Source: Candidatus Cloacimonadales bacterium
GTDB lineage: Bacteria > Cloacimonadota > Cloacimonadia > Cloacimonadales > JAFGVF01
Direction: 5' to 3'
DNA length: 64,000 nucleotides
Assembly: GCA_963677495.2 (NCBI GenBank)
Contig: CAXXOU010000001.1
Coordinates: 896,001 to 960,000 of the forward strand
Shown: positions 1 through 64,000 of the stretch, piece after piece
How the letters are laid out: each line of letters begins with the position of its first letter
Position numbering within the stretch: the stretch's first letter is position 1
Made by a program: the position numbers

Positions 1-3000
1 GACTAGATACATGGAGGTGGTGGAAAAATCCATATACAACAATCTAATTGACATAATGGAAGTGAAAATAATAGTTATAATTACTTAACTAAACTAATTA
101 TACTGGAACAAGAATGAAATACACAAAAGTAAATTATGAATACCTATTGCCGAAAGTAGATAAGCCTTCCCGATATATCGGATATGAACTCAATGCTATA
201 AATAAACCTGTAACTGATAATACGATAAACTTCTGTTTAGCTTTCCCGGATGTTTATGAAGTAGGTCTTTCACATCTTGGATTAAAGATATTATACACCA
301 TATTGAATGGGGAAGAGGATGCTGTTTGTGATAGAACATATGCGCCTTGGCCTGACTTCATGGAGCTGATGCAGGAAAAAGAGATACCATTATTTAGTAT
401 TGAGAATAAGATTCCAGTGAAGGACTTTGATGTTATTGGCTTTACTGTTCAATCAGAGCTAAACTTCTCAAATATTCCTTACATGATTGACCTGGCAGGA
501 ATCGAGCTTGAAGCGAAAGATAGAAGTGAAGATGACCCAATTATCTTAGCAGGTGGACCGGCAATATCAAACCCCGAGCCATTAGCATTGTTTTTTGATG
601 CTATATTTATTGGTGAAGCGGAAGAGGGGATACTTGATATTAAGAACTGCCTGGTTGAGCATAAGAACTCAACAAGACAGGAAAAGCTTGAAGCTTTAAG
701 CAAAATCGAAGGTGTTTACGTTCCATTAGTACACACTGAAAATGATAAAATCAATATCCGTAAATATGCCGGTTTTGCCGGTTATGAGAAGAGTCATGAG
801 AATCAACTTATACCTTGGCAACAAACAACTCATGACCGTTATATTGCTGAGATTATGCGAGGATGTTCCAGAGGTTGCAGGTTCTGTCATGCGGGTTTCT
901 TCTATAGACCTGTTAGAGAGAGAAATCCTGATGAAGTAATTGAACGTATTATTGATGAAATCGAGAAATATGGTTGGGAAGATGCAGCTTTGACATCACT
1001 ATCTTCTAGTGATTATTCACAGATAAGAGGTTTGCTGTTTAGTATATTTAAACGTTTGAATGAGCATAGAGCTGATATATCCCTGCCTTCTTTACGGGTA
1101 GATACACTAGATGATAATCTTACTGCTCTGCTTAATGTTCTGGGTCAGAAAGGACTGACAATTGCCCCTGAAGCCGGATCTCAAAGACTGAGGGATGTAA
1201 TAAATAAGAACATCTCTGAAGAGGAGATTCTTGAAGGTGTTAGAGTAGCTTTAGCAAATGGATGGCGTTCGATAAAGCTTTACTTTATGGTTGGACTTCC
1301 ATTCGAAGAAAGAGAGGATATTGAAGCTATCGTAGAGCTTGTTCACAAAATGATAGCTCTTTCGGGTAAGAAGATACAGATTAATATTACATTATCTCCG
1401 TTTGTACCTAAACCGTTTACTCCGTTCCAGTGGGCAGGAATGGTTGAGAAAGAGGAACTCTTCCAACGTGTCTCAATTGTAAAACATGCTCTTTATAAGT
1501 ACAAGTTTATCAAAGTTCGCTATCATGAACTACAAAGCTCTATGCTTGAGACAATTCTTGCTAAAGGTGATAAGCGAGTTGGTTATGTCATGAAAGAAGC
1601 ATTTAAACTCGGAGTTAAGTTTGATGGCTGGAGAGAACATTTTAACTTTGAGCTTTGGGAACAGGCTTTACAGAACGTTGGATTAGAGCTTGAAGACTGT
1701 TTAAGAGGATTTGAGCTTGAAGAACGCTTACCATGGGATAATATATCTATTAAAGTATCAAAAGATTTCCTAAAGTCTGAATGGTTAAAAGCCCAAGCTG
1801 AGCAAACTACACCATCCTGTATTGATAGATGTACTAACTGCGGTATTTGTGACCAGGAAGTAACGATGGACTTTGCAACAACAGAGATGGATGAAGTGAT
1901 TGAGAACCTTGAAAGAAAGGAACCTGATAGTAATATTGAGCTCTTCTGGTACAGAATATTCTTTAAGAAACAGGGTGGTTTGCAGTATGTTGCCCATCTT
2001 GATTTTCTGAGAATGATGCATAGGGTTCTACGTGGAACAGGACTAGATCTTGCTTATTCGCAAGGATATAGTCCACATCCTAAGGTAAGATTCGGTCCAC
2101 CATTATCAGTTGGAGTACAGGGAATCAATGAGTTTATGGAAGTTGCATTCTATAAGAAATACAGCTCTGATGTTGTTTATGAAGCATTGATTCGACTTAT
2201 GACTGGTGATCTAGCTGTGAATAGAGTTATTACTCTTGAGAAAAAGACAAAGAGTACGATTGAAGAAACCGGACTGGAATTGCTTCAAATCACGCCGAAC
2301 GAGAATTGTACTGTAGATTTTGCTAAGATTATTGATGAATATAATAAGGTTGAAAGCTTTACTTTTGAAAGAATGAGAAAGAAGAAACTAAGGGAAGTAG
2401 AACTCAAAAATATTATCTCTAAGATAGATTGGAATGGTAGAAGCTTATTGATTCAAAAGAAGTTACAAGGTGCTAGTTTATTTGATATACTAGAACATCT
2501 CTTTAAGATAGCTAGGGATGAAACAAGTAGTTTTGAGATAATCAGATTAGACTTTATTTTCTAGGATTATGGCACTATACATTATTTCTGAAATTGTTAT
2601 TCTGGCGTTGATATTCTTTGGCGTAATTTTCTTTCTTAGAAAGAGTAGAAAAGCCAGAAAAAAGATTAAAGATAGTAGGAAGGAGTTGTTTGAGATGCAG
2701 ATCAAACTGCAAAGCAAACTACTCAACAAAGATACGTTAGAGGAGGAATGAGTAGCATGGTAGGATATTTCATTCTTGGAGCATTGTTGGGTTTACTTGT
2801 AGTTATTAGTTTTGTTAGAGAAAAAAACTCAAAAGAGGAACTTAAACAGCTTAGAGAAAATAGCAGAGATAACGAAATTAAAGCTGCGAAGATGGAAACA
2901 GAGTTTAATGATTTGAAAGCTAAAGCAGAGCTTGTAGAGACACTTCGTAAAGAGAAAACTGAGAAGAGCGAAGAGCTTGAGGTGTCCAAAGCTAAGCTCA

Positions 3001-63000: not shown

Positions 63001-64000
63001 TATGGTATCACAGAAGACCTTTCCAGAACTGAAGTAAATGCCCTAAAAGGTGTTGCATTAGAGTGGAAGAATAGTCTTTTCCAAACTTCATTCTTTGCAT
63101 CAAGAGATAAAAAAGATGCCTTTGTTTATATGGACAGATATGAAGATGAAGATGGGAATATCCATTCAGTGGCAAGAAAAGATGAGAACGGCAATTATGA
63201 AGTGTTTGGTTTAGTTAATTCAACAATCCGTTTCGAAGATGATGAGATGGAAGATGCAGAGGTATACTTTAATAATGAATTAGCTGCTGGTGGCTCTCAA
63301 TATACAAATGGATATATTAACTTAGCACCACGTAAGAACCTTGTAGATGAAACACTTTATGGTGGTCACTTACAGTTTAATCCTTTCATTGGAACCAGAC
63401 TCGGCATGACAACATACACTTCTTATTATAATAATGCTGAGATTATTATTCCTGAATATGATGAGTTGGGGCAAACAGTCTTAAGAGATGAATACAACTA
63501 TCAAAAAATAAAGATTGTAGATAGTGCAGTTTCTGACCTTTATGGTACAAAGACAGATGAGTATGACAGAGATTATAGACAGGTTGTTGGTTTTGACGGT
63601 ATGACTGTGTTTAACAATGTTTCACTTCAAGGTGAATACGCTGAGTTAACCAAAACAGGTGAACTAATGAAGCTTGGTGATGATCCCAATGCTTATCTTA
63701 TCAGTACTAGAGCTCAGTTTGACAACCTTTACCTTATCCTGCTTTATCGTGATGTACATGCTGAGTATGATAACCCCTATAGTAACTTCTTCTCAGAGAA
63801 ATCTAAGCTTGATGGCACTATCTTGGAAGATTCATACATGCTTACAAACCCAATGCTGAGTGACCTTGTAGAGAACAACTCTCAGAGTCAGCCTGAGAAG
63901 GGTTTTTATATTCAATCGCGCTATAAATTCAATAAGTATTTCACTCTTTCAAAACTCTATCTTGATGTGTTTGAGAGACAATCAGATCATAGAAGAACAT

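What a model noticed while it worked through the whole genome (the two positions that open the first line are those of the whole stretch)
1..64000. 58 dispersed convergent DnaA-box pairs carried by intergenic repeats
The 21-bp palindrome TTATNCACA-N3-TGTGNATAA, two perfect consensus DnaA boxes facing each other, occurs 58 times, always between genes, as the core of two unrelated repeat families (a ~200-bp element with 24-bp terminal inverted repeats, and a ~125-bp element), and is almost absent from the terminus-side quarter of the chromosome. I read these repeats as a dispersed, origin-biased set of DnaA-titrating (datA-like) or DnaA-regulated sites spread by mobile elements. If true it would be a new way for a bacterium to buffer its replication initiator, or a MITE-borne DnaA regulon.
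Evidence so far: 58 of 58 sites intergenic (24 on C1, 5 on C2, 13 on C3, 16 on C4); the tail-to-tail arrangement occurs 0 times; control pattern read backwards 0. TTATCCACA/TGTGGATAA make up 154 of 322 TTATNCACA boxes. 23 of 58 lie between divergent genes; the 200-bp family 13 of 21 copies, its 11-bp iteron part 27 of 45. The 200-bp element: TIR CATCCCTTCCAGTCCCGTGACTAA, box pair, then 11-bp direct repeats CACGAGAGGGT. dnaA g00652 at C1:868295 with a box cluster at 869670-869772; cumulative GC-skew minimum C1:848097, maximum C4:1104663. Only 2 of 58 pairs lie in C4:700000-1505725 (23.6% of the genome, holding the skew maximum): binomial p = 4e-5; the other repeat families have 338 of 1106 copies there, Fishe The finding spans contig positions 46918 to 976614; this window holds only 896001 to 960000 of it. 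[...]
(Added by a program. Inside this text positions count along the whole contig: contig position 896,001 is position 1 of the stretch shown here. "Call 12" and the like, gene names such as g00115 and contig names such as C1 are that model's own, and its searches are not shown. The text may have been shortened before it was handed on; [...] marks where a part breaks off. The agent that wrote the report below was given it as the finding of a first reader that could run no searches.)

Follow-up and report, generated by a model that had tools for sequence, protein, structure and literature searches.

The report
Mobile repeats carrying origin-type DnaA sites
A genus of uncultured Cloacimonadota bacteria has scattered about sixty small non-coding repeats through its chromosome, and each carries a perfect copy of the double binding site that the replication initiator DnaA uses at replication origins. 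Half of the cell's best DnaA sites therefore sit on selfish-looking DNA.

Summary
The genome holds 58 perfect TTATNCACA-N3-TGTGNATAA palindromes; two of them are in this window. None is expected by chance.

The carrier repeats are not unrelated. Families A, B, C and D/K, and further families in three sister species, share one module:
- the 21-bp palindrome;
- a 12-nt linker that is the inverted complement of the first repeat;
- five repeats of 11 nt each.

The palindrome is the only part that keeps its sequence across families. The linker and first repeat co-vary. The module is a subset of about 190 elements with 11-bp-phased arrays in this genome, and most of those have no DnaA box.

The same palindrome lies beside dnaA in 7 of 12 unrelated metagenome loci examined. 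The E. coli DARS1 core has the same convergent box orientation. DnaA binding is therefore a strong inference.

Selection by the host for titration is not shown. The copies are young. In family B, private mutations hit the palindrome as often as the arms. Old copies in two sister species have decayed.

The "origin bias" is really a depletion in the terminus-side quarter, and only families A and B show it.

Best reading (confidence 0.45): the module is the cis-acting core of a mobile repeat that uses DnaA as a host factor. A large extra load of DnaA boxes on the chromosome is then a by-product.

The parts
22632..22831 (+). Family A repeat, copy 1 (about 200 bp), lying between the Na/Pi cotransporter gene and ybaB-recR
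   Evidence: nhmmer family profile hit at C1:918632-918831, score 210. Neighbouring genes named.
22700..22720 (.). Double DnaA box TTATCCACA-TGA-TGTGGATAA (head-to-head pair, 3-bp spacer)
   Evidence: Exact pattern match. 10-nt arms, 100% complementary.
22721..22732 (+). 12-nt linker whose first 7 nt pair with the start of the first repeat (second hairpin or inverted repeat)
   Evidence: Register shown. Pair counts. The DNA fold of copy 1 gives a 6-bp second stem.
22733..22787 (+). Five 11-nt phased repeats (CATGAGAGGGT, CACGAGAGGGT, CACCTGTGGGA, ...)
   Evidence: Direct repeats with spacing 11. Lag-11 array scan. G invariant at repeat positions 6 and 8 across 16 families.
47411..47610 (+). 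Family A repeat, copy 2 (about 200 bp), downstream of the malic enzyme gene
   Evidence: Best nhmmer hit of family A, C1:943411-943610, score 226. Neighbouring gene named.
47422..47465 (+). Left terminal inverted repeat arm of copy 2
   Evidence: 44-nt arms, 75% complementary, with 47550-47593.
47478..47498 (.). Double DnaA box TTATCCACA-TGA-TGTGGATAA
   Evidence: Exact pattern match. As single-stranded DNA it folds into a 9-bp stem with a 3-nt loop, -6.6 kcal/mol.
47499..47510 (+). 12-nt linker (5' arm of the second hairpin or inverted repeat)
47511..47565 (+). Five 11-nt phased repeats (CACGAGAGGGT twice, CACCTGTGGGT, AACCTTTGAAA, CACCTTTTTTA)
47550..47593 (+). Right terminal inverted repeat arm of copy 2; it overlaps the last repeats

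Best explanation
The 21-bp palindrome is a genuine origin-type double DnaA box: two consensus boxes head-to-head, 3 bp apart. It is the one sequence-invariant part of a non-coding module of about 90 bp. The module reads: double box, then a 12-nt linker that is the inverted complement of the first repeat, then five 11-nt phased repeats.

This module is the conserved core of several families of MITE-like repeats (miniature, non-coding, transposon-like; about 170-200 bp). They have multiplied in one genus of Cloacimonadota. The module is kept because the repeat needs it to propagate.

DnaA is used as a host factor, as at the Tn5 outside end. It could act by bending or marking the element. If a single-stranded stage exists, the palindrome would instead be a DnaA-box hairpin that can start complementary-strand synthesis.

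A by-product is that 116 of the 322 consensus boxes, and 78 of the 154 TTATCCACA-type boxes, now sit on these repeats. DnaA availability is therefore probably affected.

Shown: the anatomy, the conservation pattern, the distribution, and the identity of the palindrome with origin sites elsewhere.
Inferred: DnaA binding, the benefit to the element, and mobility itself. No transposase, target duplication or empty site was found.
For: The module is shared and fixed in register:
- 16 (sub)families from 4 species have the palindrome, a 12-nt linker and 11-nt repeats in the same register.
- In the palindrome, 6 of 9 stem pairs never vary. The middle (N) pair is unpaired in 9 of 16 families.
- In the linker/first-repeat helix, 5 of 7 pairs change on both sides and 88% of cells stay paired. 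The palindrome is thus held by its sequence and the second helix by its complementarity.

The module is the conserved core within families:
- Fixed palindrome positions diverge by 0.3% (A) and 0.9% (B). The repeats are as conserved or more. The other inner positions diverge by 13-15%.
- Variants shared between copies are 0% in the palindrome and 12-29% in the arms. Every lineage that multiplied kept the module.

The palindrome is a DnaA site:
- The genome's own origin beside dnaA uses TTATCCACA, TGTGGATAA, TGTGTATAA and TTATGCACA.
- The 25-bp palindrome lies next to dnaA in 7 of 12 metagenome loci examined.
- Extra perfect boxes lie within 300 bp in 53 of 80 metagenome loci and 58 of 80 viral-contig loci.
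- In 301 Myxococcota genomes, 18 head-to-head pairs were found, with spacers of 3 bp (5 cases) and 4 bp (4 cases) the commonest.

The evidence does not point to host maintenance:
- Private mutations in family B: palindrome 0.87%, arms about 1%.
- The boxes are decayed in G003 and G001 copies.
- The trait is confined to one genus.

Precedents:
- Tn5 ends hold a DnaA site, and DnaA is listed among host factors co-opted by transposons (PMC3347997, passages).
- A DnaA-box hairpin on single-stranded DNA lets DnaA load DnaB and start synthesis (PMC6127211, passages).
Against: - No autonomous element, transposase partner, target-site duplication or empty site was found. Mobility is inferred only from copy number and dispersed positions.
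- The 14 Y1-transposase hits in the genome are flanked by other, short hairpin repeats, not by these modules.
- Most 11-bp arrays (151 of 191 elements) do without any DnaA box. The box pair is therefore not needed by the class as a whole.
- In family A, private mutations are rarer in the palindrome (1 of 384 cells) than in the arms (2.5%; P = 0.002). That would fit selection after insertion.
- Families A and B are depleted in the terminus-side quartile (3 of 59). Arrays without boxes are not (42 of 151), and IS21 is enriched there (8 of 17). A purely selfish model does not predict this.
- There is no orientation bias relative to the replication fork (A 12 of 23, B 12 of 32). This speaks against an IS200/IS605-like single-strand route.
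Confidence: 0.45

Rival explanations
1. Host-selected DnaA buffer. The dispersed double boxes are kept because they tune the initiator. They could act as a distributed sink (titration, datA-like). Alternatively, because the boxes are head-to-head, they could act as DARS-like sites that strip ADP from DnaA and regenerate active ATP-DnaA. Their absence near the terminus would keep their dosage tied to early replication.
For: - 116 of 322 consensus boxes and 78 of 154 of the strongest type lie in the pairs. The remaining 206 are about what base composition predicts (226).
- The terminus-quartile depletion is specific to the perfect-pair families: A 1 of 24 and B 2 of 36, against 42 of 151 for box-less arrays.
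- Both C copies in the terminus quartile carry a mutated box.
- Family A shows fewer private mutations in the palindrome than in the arms (P = 0.002).
- The E. coli DARS1 core reads TTATCCACT-N5-TGTGGATAA-N3-TGTGTATTA. That is the same convergent orientation, and boxes I and II are described as essential (PMC6868365 passages; sequence read).
Against: - Family B shows no deficit of private mutations in the palindrome.
- The boxes are decayed in G003 and G001.
- Related genera have none: 0 of 8 genomes in the same family and 1 single match in 228 other genomes of the phylum.
- There is no third box as in DARS and no box cluster as in datA. Each site has two boxes only.
- The depletion was noticed after the fact, and the copies are not independent events.
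Confidence: 0.2
2. The palindrome is the site of another protein, or only a hairpin recognised by the element's own recombinase. Its match to the DnaA box is then a coincidence or a by-product.
For: - It is the single sequence shared by all families, as a common transposase or recombinase site would be.
- Family D/K keeps TGTGACTAA, a non-consensus second box, in 12 copies.
- G003 subfamilies with a mutated distal box still have two copies each.
- The 14 Y1-transposase hits show that hairpin-reading enzymes are plentiful in this genome.
Against: - An exact match to 8 specified positions in both halves, with variation exactly at the DnaA-box N position and in the spacer, is unlikely by chance.
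- The G that usually precedes TTAT in the boxes seen here is also kept, in 14 of 16 families.
- The same palindrome sits beside dnaA in unrelated bacteria.
- No candidate protein was found next to the modules.
Confidence: 0.2
3. The module is a small structured RNA gene family, or is active as one strand of nucleic acid. It would fold as hairpin 1, then hairpin 2, then a G-rich repeat tail.
For: - Compensatory changes in helix 2.
- All 10 wobble cells are G.T on the repeat strand and none is A.C, out of 112 cells.
- Families A, B and C have a T run after the fifth repeat.
Against: - No Rfam family matches in the window.
- No sigma-70-like promoter is found in or beside either window copy.
- No conserved upstream sequence is shared between families.
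- 7 of the 10 wobbles are at one pair whose T is fixed by the palindrome extension.
- Helix 2 can equally be a duplex inverted repeat of the repeat word.
- There is no consistent orientation towards neighbouring genes.
Confidence: 0.1

Closest known systems
DnaA box in the Tn5/IS50 outside end (host factor for transposition)
   Same: A mobile element carries a consensus DnaA box (TTATACACA type) in a cis-acting sequence. DnaA is counted among host proteins co-opted by transposons (PMC3347997, passages).
   Different: Tn5 has one box inside its 19-bp end and a known transposase. Here there are two boxes head-to-head in the middle of a non-coding repeat, next to phased 11-nt repeats, and no transposase was found.
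DARS1/DARS2 (DnaA-reactivating sequences) of E. coli
   Same: The core consists of two oppositely oriented, convergent DnaA boxes (PMC6868365, passages; read in K-12 as TTATCCACT-N5-TGTGGATAA).
   Different: In DARS the spacer is 5 bp rather than 3, a third box follows, there are only two loci per chromosome, and they are not on repeats. No nucleotide-release activity has been tested here.
datA and DnaA-box clusters (titration or inactivation loci)
   Same: This comparison rests on my own knowledge.
   Different: Those are single loci with clusters of boxes, and datA also has an IHF site. Here there are about 60 isolated pairs on repeats, and no cluster at any site.
oriC DnaA-box clusters next to dnaA
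   Same: The identical 25-bp palindrome AGTTATNCACA-N3-TGTGNATAACT lies directly beside dnaA in 7 of 12 metagenome loci examined.
   Different: At origins it is one member of a cluster of many boxes (up to 29 in a 5-kb locus). In the repeats it stands alone.
MITEs and REP/BIME repeats that carry host-factor sites (Correia elements and BIMEs with IHF sites)
   Same: Small, dispersed, intergenic, non-coding repeats with inverted ends that carry a binding site for a host DNA-binding protein. This comparison rests on my own knowledge.
   Different: The factor here would be the replication initiator. The conserved part is an internal module, not the ends. Y1 (RAYT-like) genes are present but are flanked by other repeats.
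ABC-primosome 'A site' (DnaA-box hairpin on single-stranded DNA)
   Same: As a single strand the palindrome folds into a 9-bp stem that is one duplex DnaA box. Such a hairpin lets DnaA load DnaB and start DNA synthesis (PMC6127211, passages).
   Different: No single-stranded stage of these repeats is known. There is no fork-orientation bias.
Arrays of low-affinity DnaA sites in E. coli oriC
   Same: A high-affinity box donates DnaA to four 9-mers separated by 2 bp, giving an 11-bp period (PMC6070618, passage). The module likewise has a strong site followed by five units at an 11-bp period.
   Different: - The repeats match TGTGNATAA at 4.0 of 8 positions in the best phase, against 2.2 at random. 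Two of those matches are the two invariant G.
- The lattice is 3 bp out of phase with the proximal box.
- 151 arrays exist without any box.

Membership tests
DnaA box (binding site of the replication initiator) | 9-mer matching TTATNCACA | tested here: met
   Both halves are perfect in 58 sites. Variation falls at N and in the spacer.
DnaA box (binding site of the replication initiator) | The organism's own origin uses the same box variants | tested here: met
   Four boxes lie 60-170 bp downstream of dnaA: TTATCCACA, TGTGGATAA, TGTGTATAA, TTATGCACA.
DnaA box (binding site of the replication initiator) | The same arrangement is used at bona fide origins | tested here: met
   dnaA is adjacent in 7 of 12 metagenome loci examined. 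Extra boxes are present in 53 of 80 metagenome and 58 of 80 viral-contig loci.
DnaA box (binding site of the replication initiator) | DnaA protein binds it | not testable with these tools
   Needs EMSA, footprinting or ChIP.
datA-like titration/inactivation locus | A cluster of several DnaA boxes at one locus with an IHF site | tested here: not met
   Each site has exactly two boxes and no further box in the element. IHF site not tested.
DARS-like reactivating sequence | Two oppositely oriented (convergent) boxes, I and II | tested here: met
   Same orientation as E. coli DARS1. The spacer is 3 bp instead of 5.
DARS-like reactivating sequence | A third box in tandem with box II | tested here: not met
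   No box-like 9-mer follows the proximal box. The best phase of the repeats matches 4.0 of 8 positions.
DARS-like reactivating sequence | Promotes ADP release from DnaA | not testable with these tools
   Biochemical assay needed.
MITE (non-autonomous DDE-transposon derivative) | Terminal inverted repeats | tested here: met
   Family A copy 2 has 44-nt arms, 75% complementary. Inverted ends appear in the B, C and D/K consensus or copies.
MITE (non-autonomous DDE-transposon derivative) | Target-site duplication | tested here: inconclusive
   No direct repeat is seen at the ends of the 9 family A copies whose ends could be placed. The ends are fuzzy and often abut other repeats.
MITE (non-autonomous DDE-transposon derivative) | An autonomous partner with the same ends | tested here: not met
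   All profile hits are short elements. The ends of the IS21 copy read in the window are unrelated.
MITE (non-autonomous DDE-transposon derivative) | The ends are the best-conserved part | tested here: not met
   The ends and arms diverge by 13-40%. The internal module diverges by less than 1%.
REP/REPIN with RAYT (Y1 transposase) | A Y1 transposase gene flanked by its cognate repeats | tested here: not met
   There are 14 Y1_Tnp hits. Of the 12 whose flanks I read, most have repeated DNA on both sides within about 150 bp, seen as short GC-rich hairpins in the printed flanks, not these modules. Only one D copy lies 638 bp from a Y1 gene.
Iteron-type plasmid origin | DnaA box(es) plus direct repeats next to a rep gene | tested here: not met
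   The boxes and direct repeats are present, but there is no coding gene in the elements. The repeats are 11 bp and GC-richer than the genome.

The most novel reading that the evidence does not exclude
Each module is a portable miniature DnaA-assembly region. A head-to-head DnaA dimer forms on the double box, as on boxes I and II of DARS. The adjoining five units at an 11-bp period, the same period as the low-affinity arrays of oriC, guide a short DnaA filament. The roughly 60 modules, spread over the origin-side three quarters of the chromosome, would then form a distributed buffer of DnaA amount or nucleotide state. That buffer would have been installed by mobile DNA and since shaped by selection.
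Probability: 0.12. Interest if true: 0.9.

Novelty: new variant of a known kind. Interest (0 to 1): 0.62.

Why it matters
DnaA-box load and position are central to models of how bacteria time replication (titration, datA, DARS). These have been studied in very few organisms.

Here mobile-looking repeats have roughly doubled the number of best-type DnaA boxes in a chromosome, and they did so in an arrangement used at real origins. Two sister species have about 55 pairs each and two have almost none. That gives a natural comparison for asking how much extra initiator-binding DNA a cell tolerates or exploits.

The finding also ties a recognisable host-factor site to the otherwise unexplained class of 11-bp-phased repeat arrays in this genus. 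That offers an experimental handle on the class.

Tried and rejected
- Rfam scan of the window: no family reached its gathering score.
- Public RNA runs: no RNA holder listed. Four runs from one study hold the DNA. Expression was therefore not examined, and read laying was not used.
- IS21 as the autonomous partner: its ends (TGTCAATGGCAGTG...) are unrelated.
- Y1 transposases as partners: of the 12 Y1 genes whose flanks I read, most are flanked by other short hairpin repeats. 9 of 14 hits have some 11-bp array within 2.5 kb, but arrays are frequent, about one per 15 kb.
- Empty-site comparison with sister species: the flanks of both window copies map to non-syntenic places at 74-83% identity, so no empty site could be read. 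The flanks of a G001 copy gave no clear orthologous site either.
- Target-site duplications: not resolved.
- Fork-orientation bias: none.
- Consistent orientation towards genes: none. Family A is frequent between divergent genes (11 of 22).
- Sigma-70-type promoters inside the two window copies: none.
- The repeats as weak DnaA boxes: inconclusive.
- The single Polyangiaceae match to the 45-nt pattern has no 11-nt repeats. Its ORFs gave no clue to its context.
- Literature: searches for 'DnaA box' plus 'miniature inverted-repeat transposable', and for 'TTATCCACA' plus 'repetitive element' plus 'intergenic', each returned one paper. By their listed titles neither concerns such repeats. Supplements were not consulted.
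Full report
**The observation**

The pattern TTATNCACA-N3-TGTGNATAA occurs twice in the window, at 22700 and 47478. 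It occurred in none of 100 shuffles. In the 3.41-Mb genome of four contigs it occurs 58 times: 24, 5, 13 and 16 on C1 to C4. The tail-to-tail arrangement occurs 0 times. There are 322 single boxes, of which 154 are of the TTATCCACA type.

116 of the 322 boxes, and 78 of the 154 strongest-type boxes, lie in these pairs. The other 206 are about what base composition predicts, 226. By crude ORF-based gene calls, 57 of 58 sites are intergenic.

The organism is a Cloacimonadota. A sister genome is a Candidatus Cloacimonadales MAG and another is Candidatus Zophobacter franzmannii. Proteins in the window carry type IX secretion sorting domains.

**Anatomy**

The pairs sit in family A (23 perfect pairs among 24 copies), family B (32 among 36; one copy is split by an IS21 insertion inside the palindrome) and family C (3 among 6). 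A fourth family, D/K, has 12 copies with TTATCCACA-N3-TGTGACTAA.

All of them, plus the families found in three sister species, have the same layout in the same register:
- the 21-bp palindrome;
- a 12-nt linker;
- five 11-nt repeats, with G invariant at repeat positions 6 and 8.

The first seven linker bases are the inverted complement of the end of the linker plus the start of the first repeat.

I counted pairs on an alignment of 16 (sub)families, choosing one copy per family myself. In the palindrome helix, 6 of 9 pairs never vary, and the central N pair is unpaired in 9 of 16 families. In the second helix, 5 of 7 pairs change on both sides and 88% of cells are paired. All slid controls fall to 31-50% paired. 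The palindrome is therefore held by its sequence, and the second helix by its complementarity.

Of the 112 cells in helix 2, 89 are Watson-Crick, 10 are G.T on the repeat strand, none is A.C, and 13 are other. This hints at folding of one strand. However, 7 of the 10 wobbles fall at one pair whose T belongs to the extended palindrome.

Family A has inverted ends; copy 2 has 44-nt arms that are 75% complementary.

**A larger class**

A lag-11 scan finds 229 arrays of 11-bp-phased words, which merge into 191 elements. Of the 191, 151 are 4 or more mismatches from the palindrome within 70 bp. These include the CACTG, GCCAAG, CCCGAG, TAACGG and CCACGG families. In the copies printed, most of them (CCCGAG, GCCAAG, CACTG) carry an inverted arm of the same words instead.

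In species G003, CCCGAG repeats do occur with the palindrome. The double box is therefore an optional module that combines with different repeat words.

**Is it a DnaA site?**

- The genome's dnaA (C1:868310-869614) is followed by four boxes: TTATCCACA, TGTGGATAA, TGTGTATAA and TTATGCACA. These are the same variants found in the repeats.
In the 80 loci I could read, 58 have at least one further perfect box within 300 bp and 37 have two or more. About 0.02 per locus is expected.
Of 80 loci read, 5 are the Zophobacter-type module and 53 have extra boxes.
- I chose 12 of those loci, six of them because they were rich in boxes. In 7 of the 12 a dnaA gene lies right beside the pair, typically opposite yidC.
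- In 301 Myxococcota genomes, 18 head-to-head pairs with spacers of 0-14 bp were found. Spacers of 3 bp (5 cases) and 4 bp (4 cases) are the commonest. The reversed control gave 1 match.

The palindrome is therefore an arrangement that real origins use. DnaA binding itself is inferred, not shown.

**Element or host?**

Within families, the palindrome's fixed positions diverge by 0.3% (A) and 0.9% (B). The repeats are as conserved or more. Other inner positions diverge by 13-15%, and the N and spacer positions by 14% (A) and 6% (B).

Splitting the variation shows the following:
- The arms differ mainly by variants shared between copies (12-29% of cells). The palindrome has none of these.
- Private variants are rare everywhere.
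- In family B they are as frequent in the palindrome (5 of 576 cells) as in the arms (about 1%; Fisher P = 0.82).
- In family A they are rarer in the palindrome (1 of 384 against 2.5%; P = 0.002).

Every lineage that multiplied thus kept the module. The copies are too young to show clear maintenance by the host.

In G003, four A-like copies have 1-2 mismatches in the boxes, and one of the two G001 C-like copies has one mismatch.

Perfect pairs are confined to one genus: 58, 53, 2 and 1 per genome. They are absent from 8 genomes of the same family, and 228 other genomes of the phylum hold a single match between them.

**Position on the chromosome**

GC skew orders the contigs C1-C2-C4-C3. The origin is near C1:850 kb and the terminus near C4:1100 kb.

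| Set | Quartile counts, origin to terminus |
|---|---|
| Perfect pairs (58) | 17 / 19 / 19 / 3 |
| Arrays without a palindrome (151) | 31 / 38 / 40 / 42 |

- The last quartile holds 24% of intergenic DNA. The binomial P for 3 of 58 is 1e-4.
- Counting every copy scored (65 A, B and C copies plus five D copies), 7 of 70 lie in the last quartile (P = 0.002). A+B contribute 3 of 59; C plus the five D copies contribute 4 of 11.
- 8 of the 17 IS21 IstB-like hits lie in the terminus quartile (positions).

The depletion is therefore real and specific to the two perfect-pair families. It is not an origin gradient. It was noticed after the fact, and the copies are not independent events. I cannot explain it.

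There is no bias relative to fork direction (A 12 of 23, B 12 of 32).

**Mechanism**

I commit to the reading that the module is the cis-acting core of a mobile repeat and that DnaA serves it as a host factor. Three precedents bear on this:
- Tn5 ends hold a DnaA site, and DnaA is listed among host proteins co-opted by transposons (PMC3347997, passages read).
- A hairpin holding a DnaA box on single-stranded DNA lets DnaA load DnaB and start synthesis (PMC6127211, passages read). As single-stranded DNA the palindrome folds at -6.6 kcal/mol, and at about -10 kcal/mol together with the second hairpin.
- The E. coli DARS core has convergent boxes I and II, 5 bp apart (PMC6868365, passages read). 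In K-12 I read TTATCCACT-N5-TGTGGATAA-N3-TGTGTATTA between bioD and uvrB. That this stretch is DARS1 is from my memory.

A host effect, if there is one, could therefore be reactivation as well as titration.

The low-affinity arrays of oriC have 9-mers 2 bp apart (PMC6070618, passage read), which gives the same 11-bp period. The repeats here resemble a DnaA box only weakly: 4.0 of 8 positions match against 2.2 at random, and two of the four are the invariant G.

**What is missing**

- No transposase partner was found. The ends of the IS21 copy read in the window are unrelated. The Y1 genes whose flanks I read are mostly flanked by other hairpin repeats.
- No target duplication was seen.
- No empty site could be read.
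- No RNA data are available.
- No Rfam family matches.
- No promoter-like site lies in the window copies.
- Two literature searches returned nothing on DnaA boxes carried by dispersed repeats.

**Verdict**

This is a new variant of a known kind: a dispersed repeat that carries a host-factor site. The unusual points are that the factor is the replication initiator and that the site is an origin-type double box. Interest 0.62.

Noticed in passing
window 30100-32490 (istA 30171-31703, istB 31705-32436): An IS21-family element with ends TGTCAATGGCAGTG.../...GCCATTGACA. The IstB-like ATPase gives 17 hits in the genome, nearly all with identical scores; 8 of them lie in the terminus-side quartile. 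One copy is inserted inside the palindrome of a family B repeat (C3:196550/198910).
   Followed up: partly
window 14675-15031 (+): A Y1 (IS200/IS605 or RAYT-like) transposase gene. The genome has 14 hits to Y1_Tnp. Of the 12 whose flanks I read, most are flanked on both sides by short GC-rich hairpin repeats present in 8-87 copies, a REPtron-like layout.
   Followed up: partly
whole genome; in the window also 29713-29767: 229 arrays of words phased at exactly 11 bp (CACTG, GCCAAG, CCCGAG, TAACGG, CCACGG and others). Most printed copies are long imperfect palindromes. What reads them is unknown. All families share G-N-G at the same place in the unit.
   Followed up: partly
G000 C1:848002-848202: A family A copy sits at the cumulative GC-skew minimum, about 20 kb from dnaA. 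With so weak a skew this may be coincidence.
   Followed up: no
window 47594-47650 and beside many other family A copies: A further repeat (AAATTGTTAGTGG... twice) abuts the right end of many family A copies. The repeats therefore often sit in composite blocks.
   Followed up: no
metagenome loci L206, L217, L226, L232, L236, L242, L256: The 25-bp palindrome AGTTATNCACA-N3-TGTGNATAACT is a recurrent part of the box cluster beside dnaA (in six of the seven loci the other examined gene is yidC) in unrelated bacteria. There are up to 29 boxes per 5-kb locus.
   Followed up: partly
G000 contigs C1-C4: GC skew fits a single circular chromosome in the order C1-C2-C4-C3, all in forward orientation, with replichores of 1.61 and 1.80 Mb.
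   Followed up: partly
L007 / L021 (Polyangiaceae MAG contig, 2.3 kb): A single TTATGCACAGGCTGTGGATAA in GC-rich DNA is followed by a 6-bp hairpin and GAGGGTC at the same distance as in the Cloacimonadota module, but there are no 11-nt repeats. Its context is unknown.
   Followed up: partly
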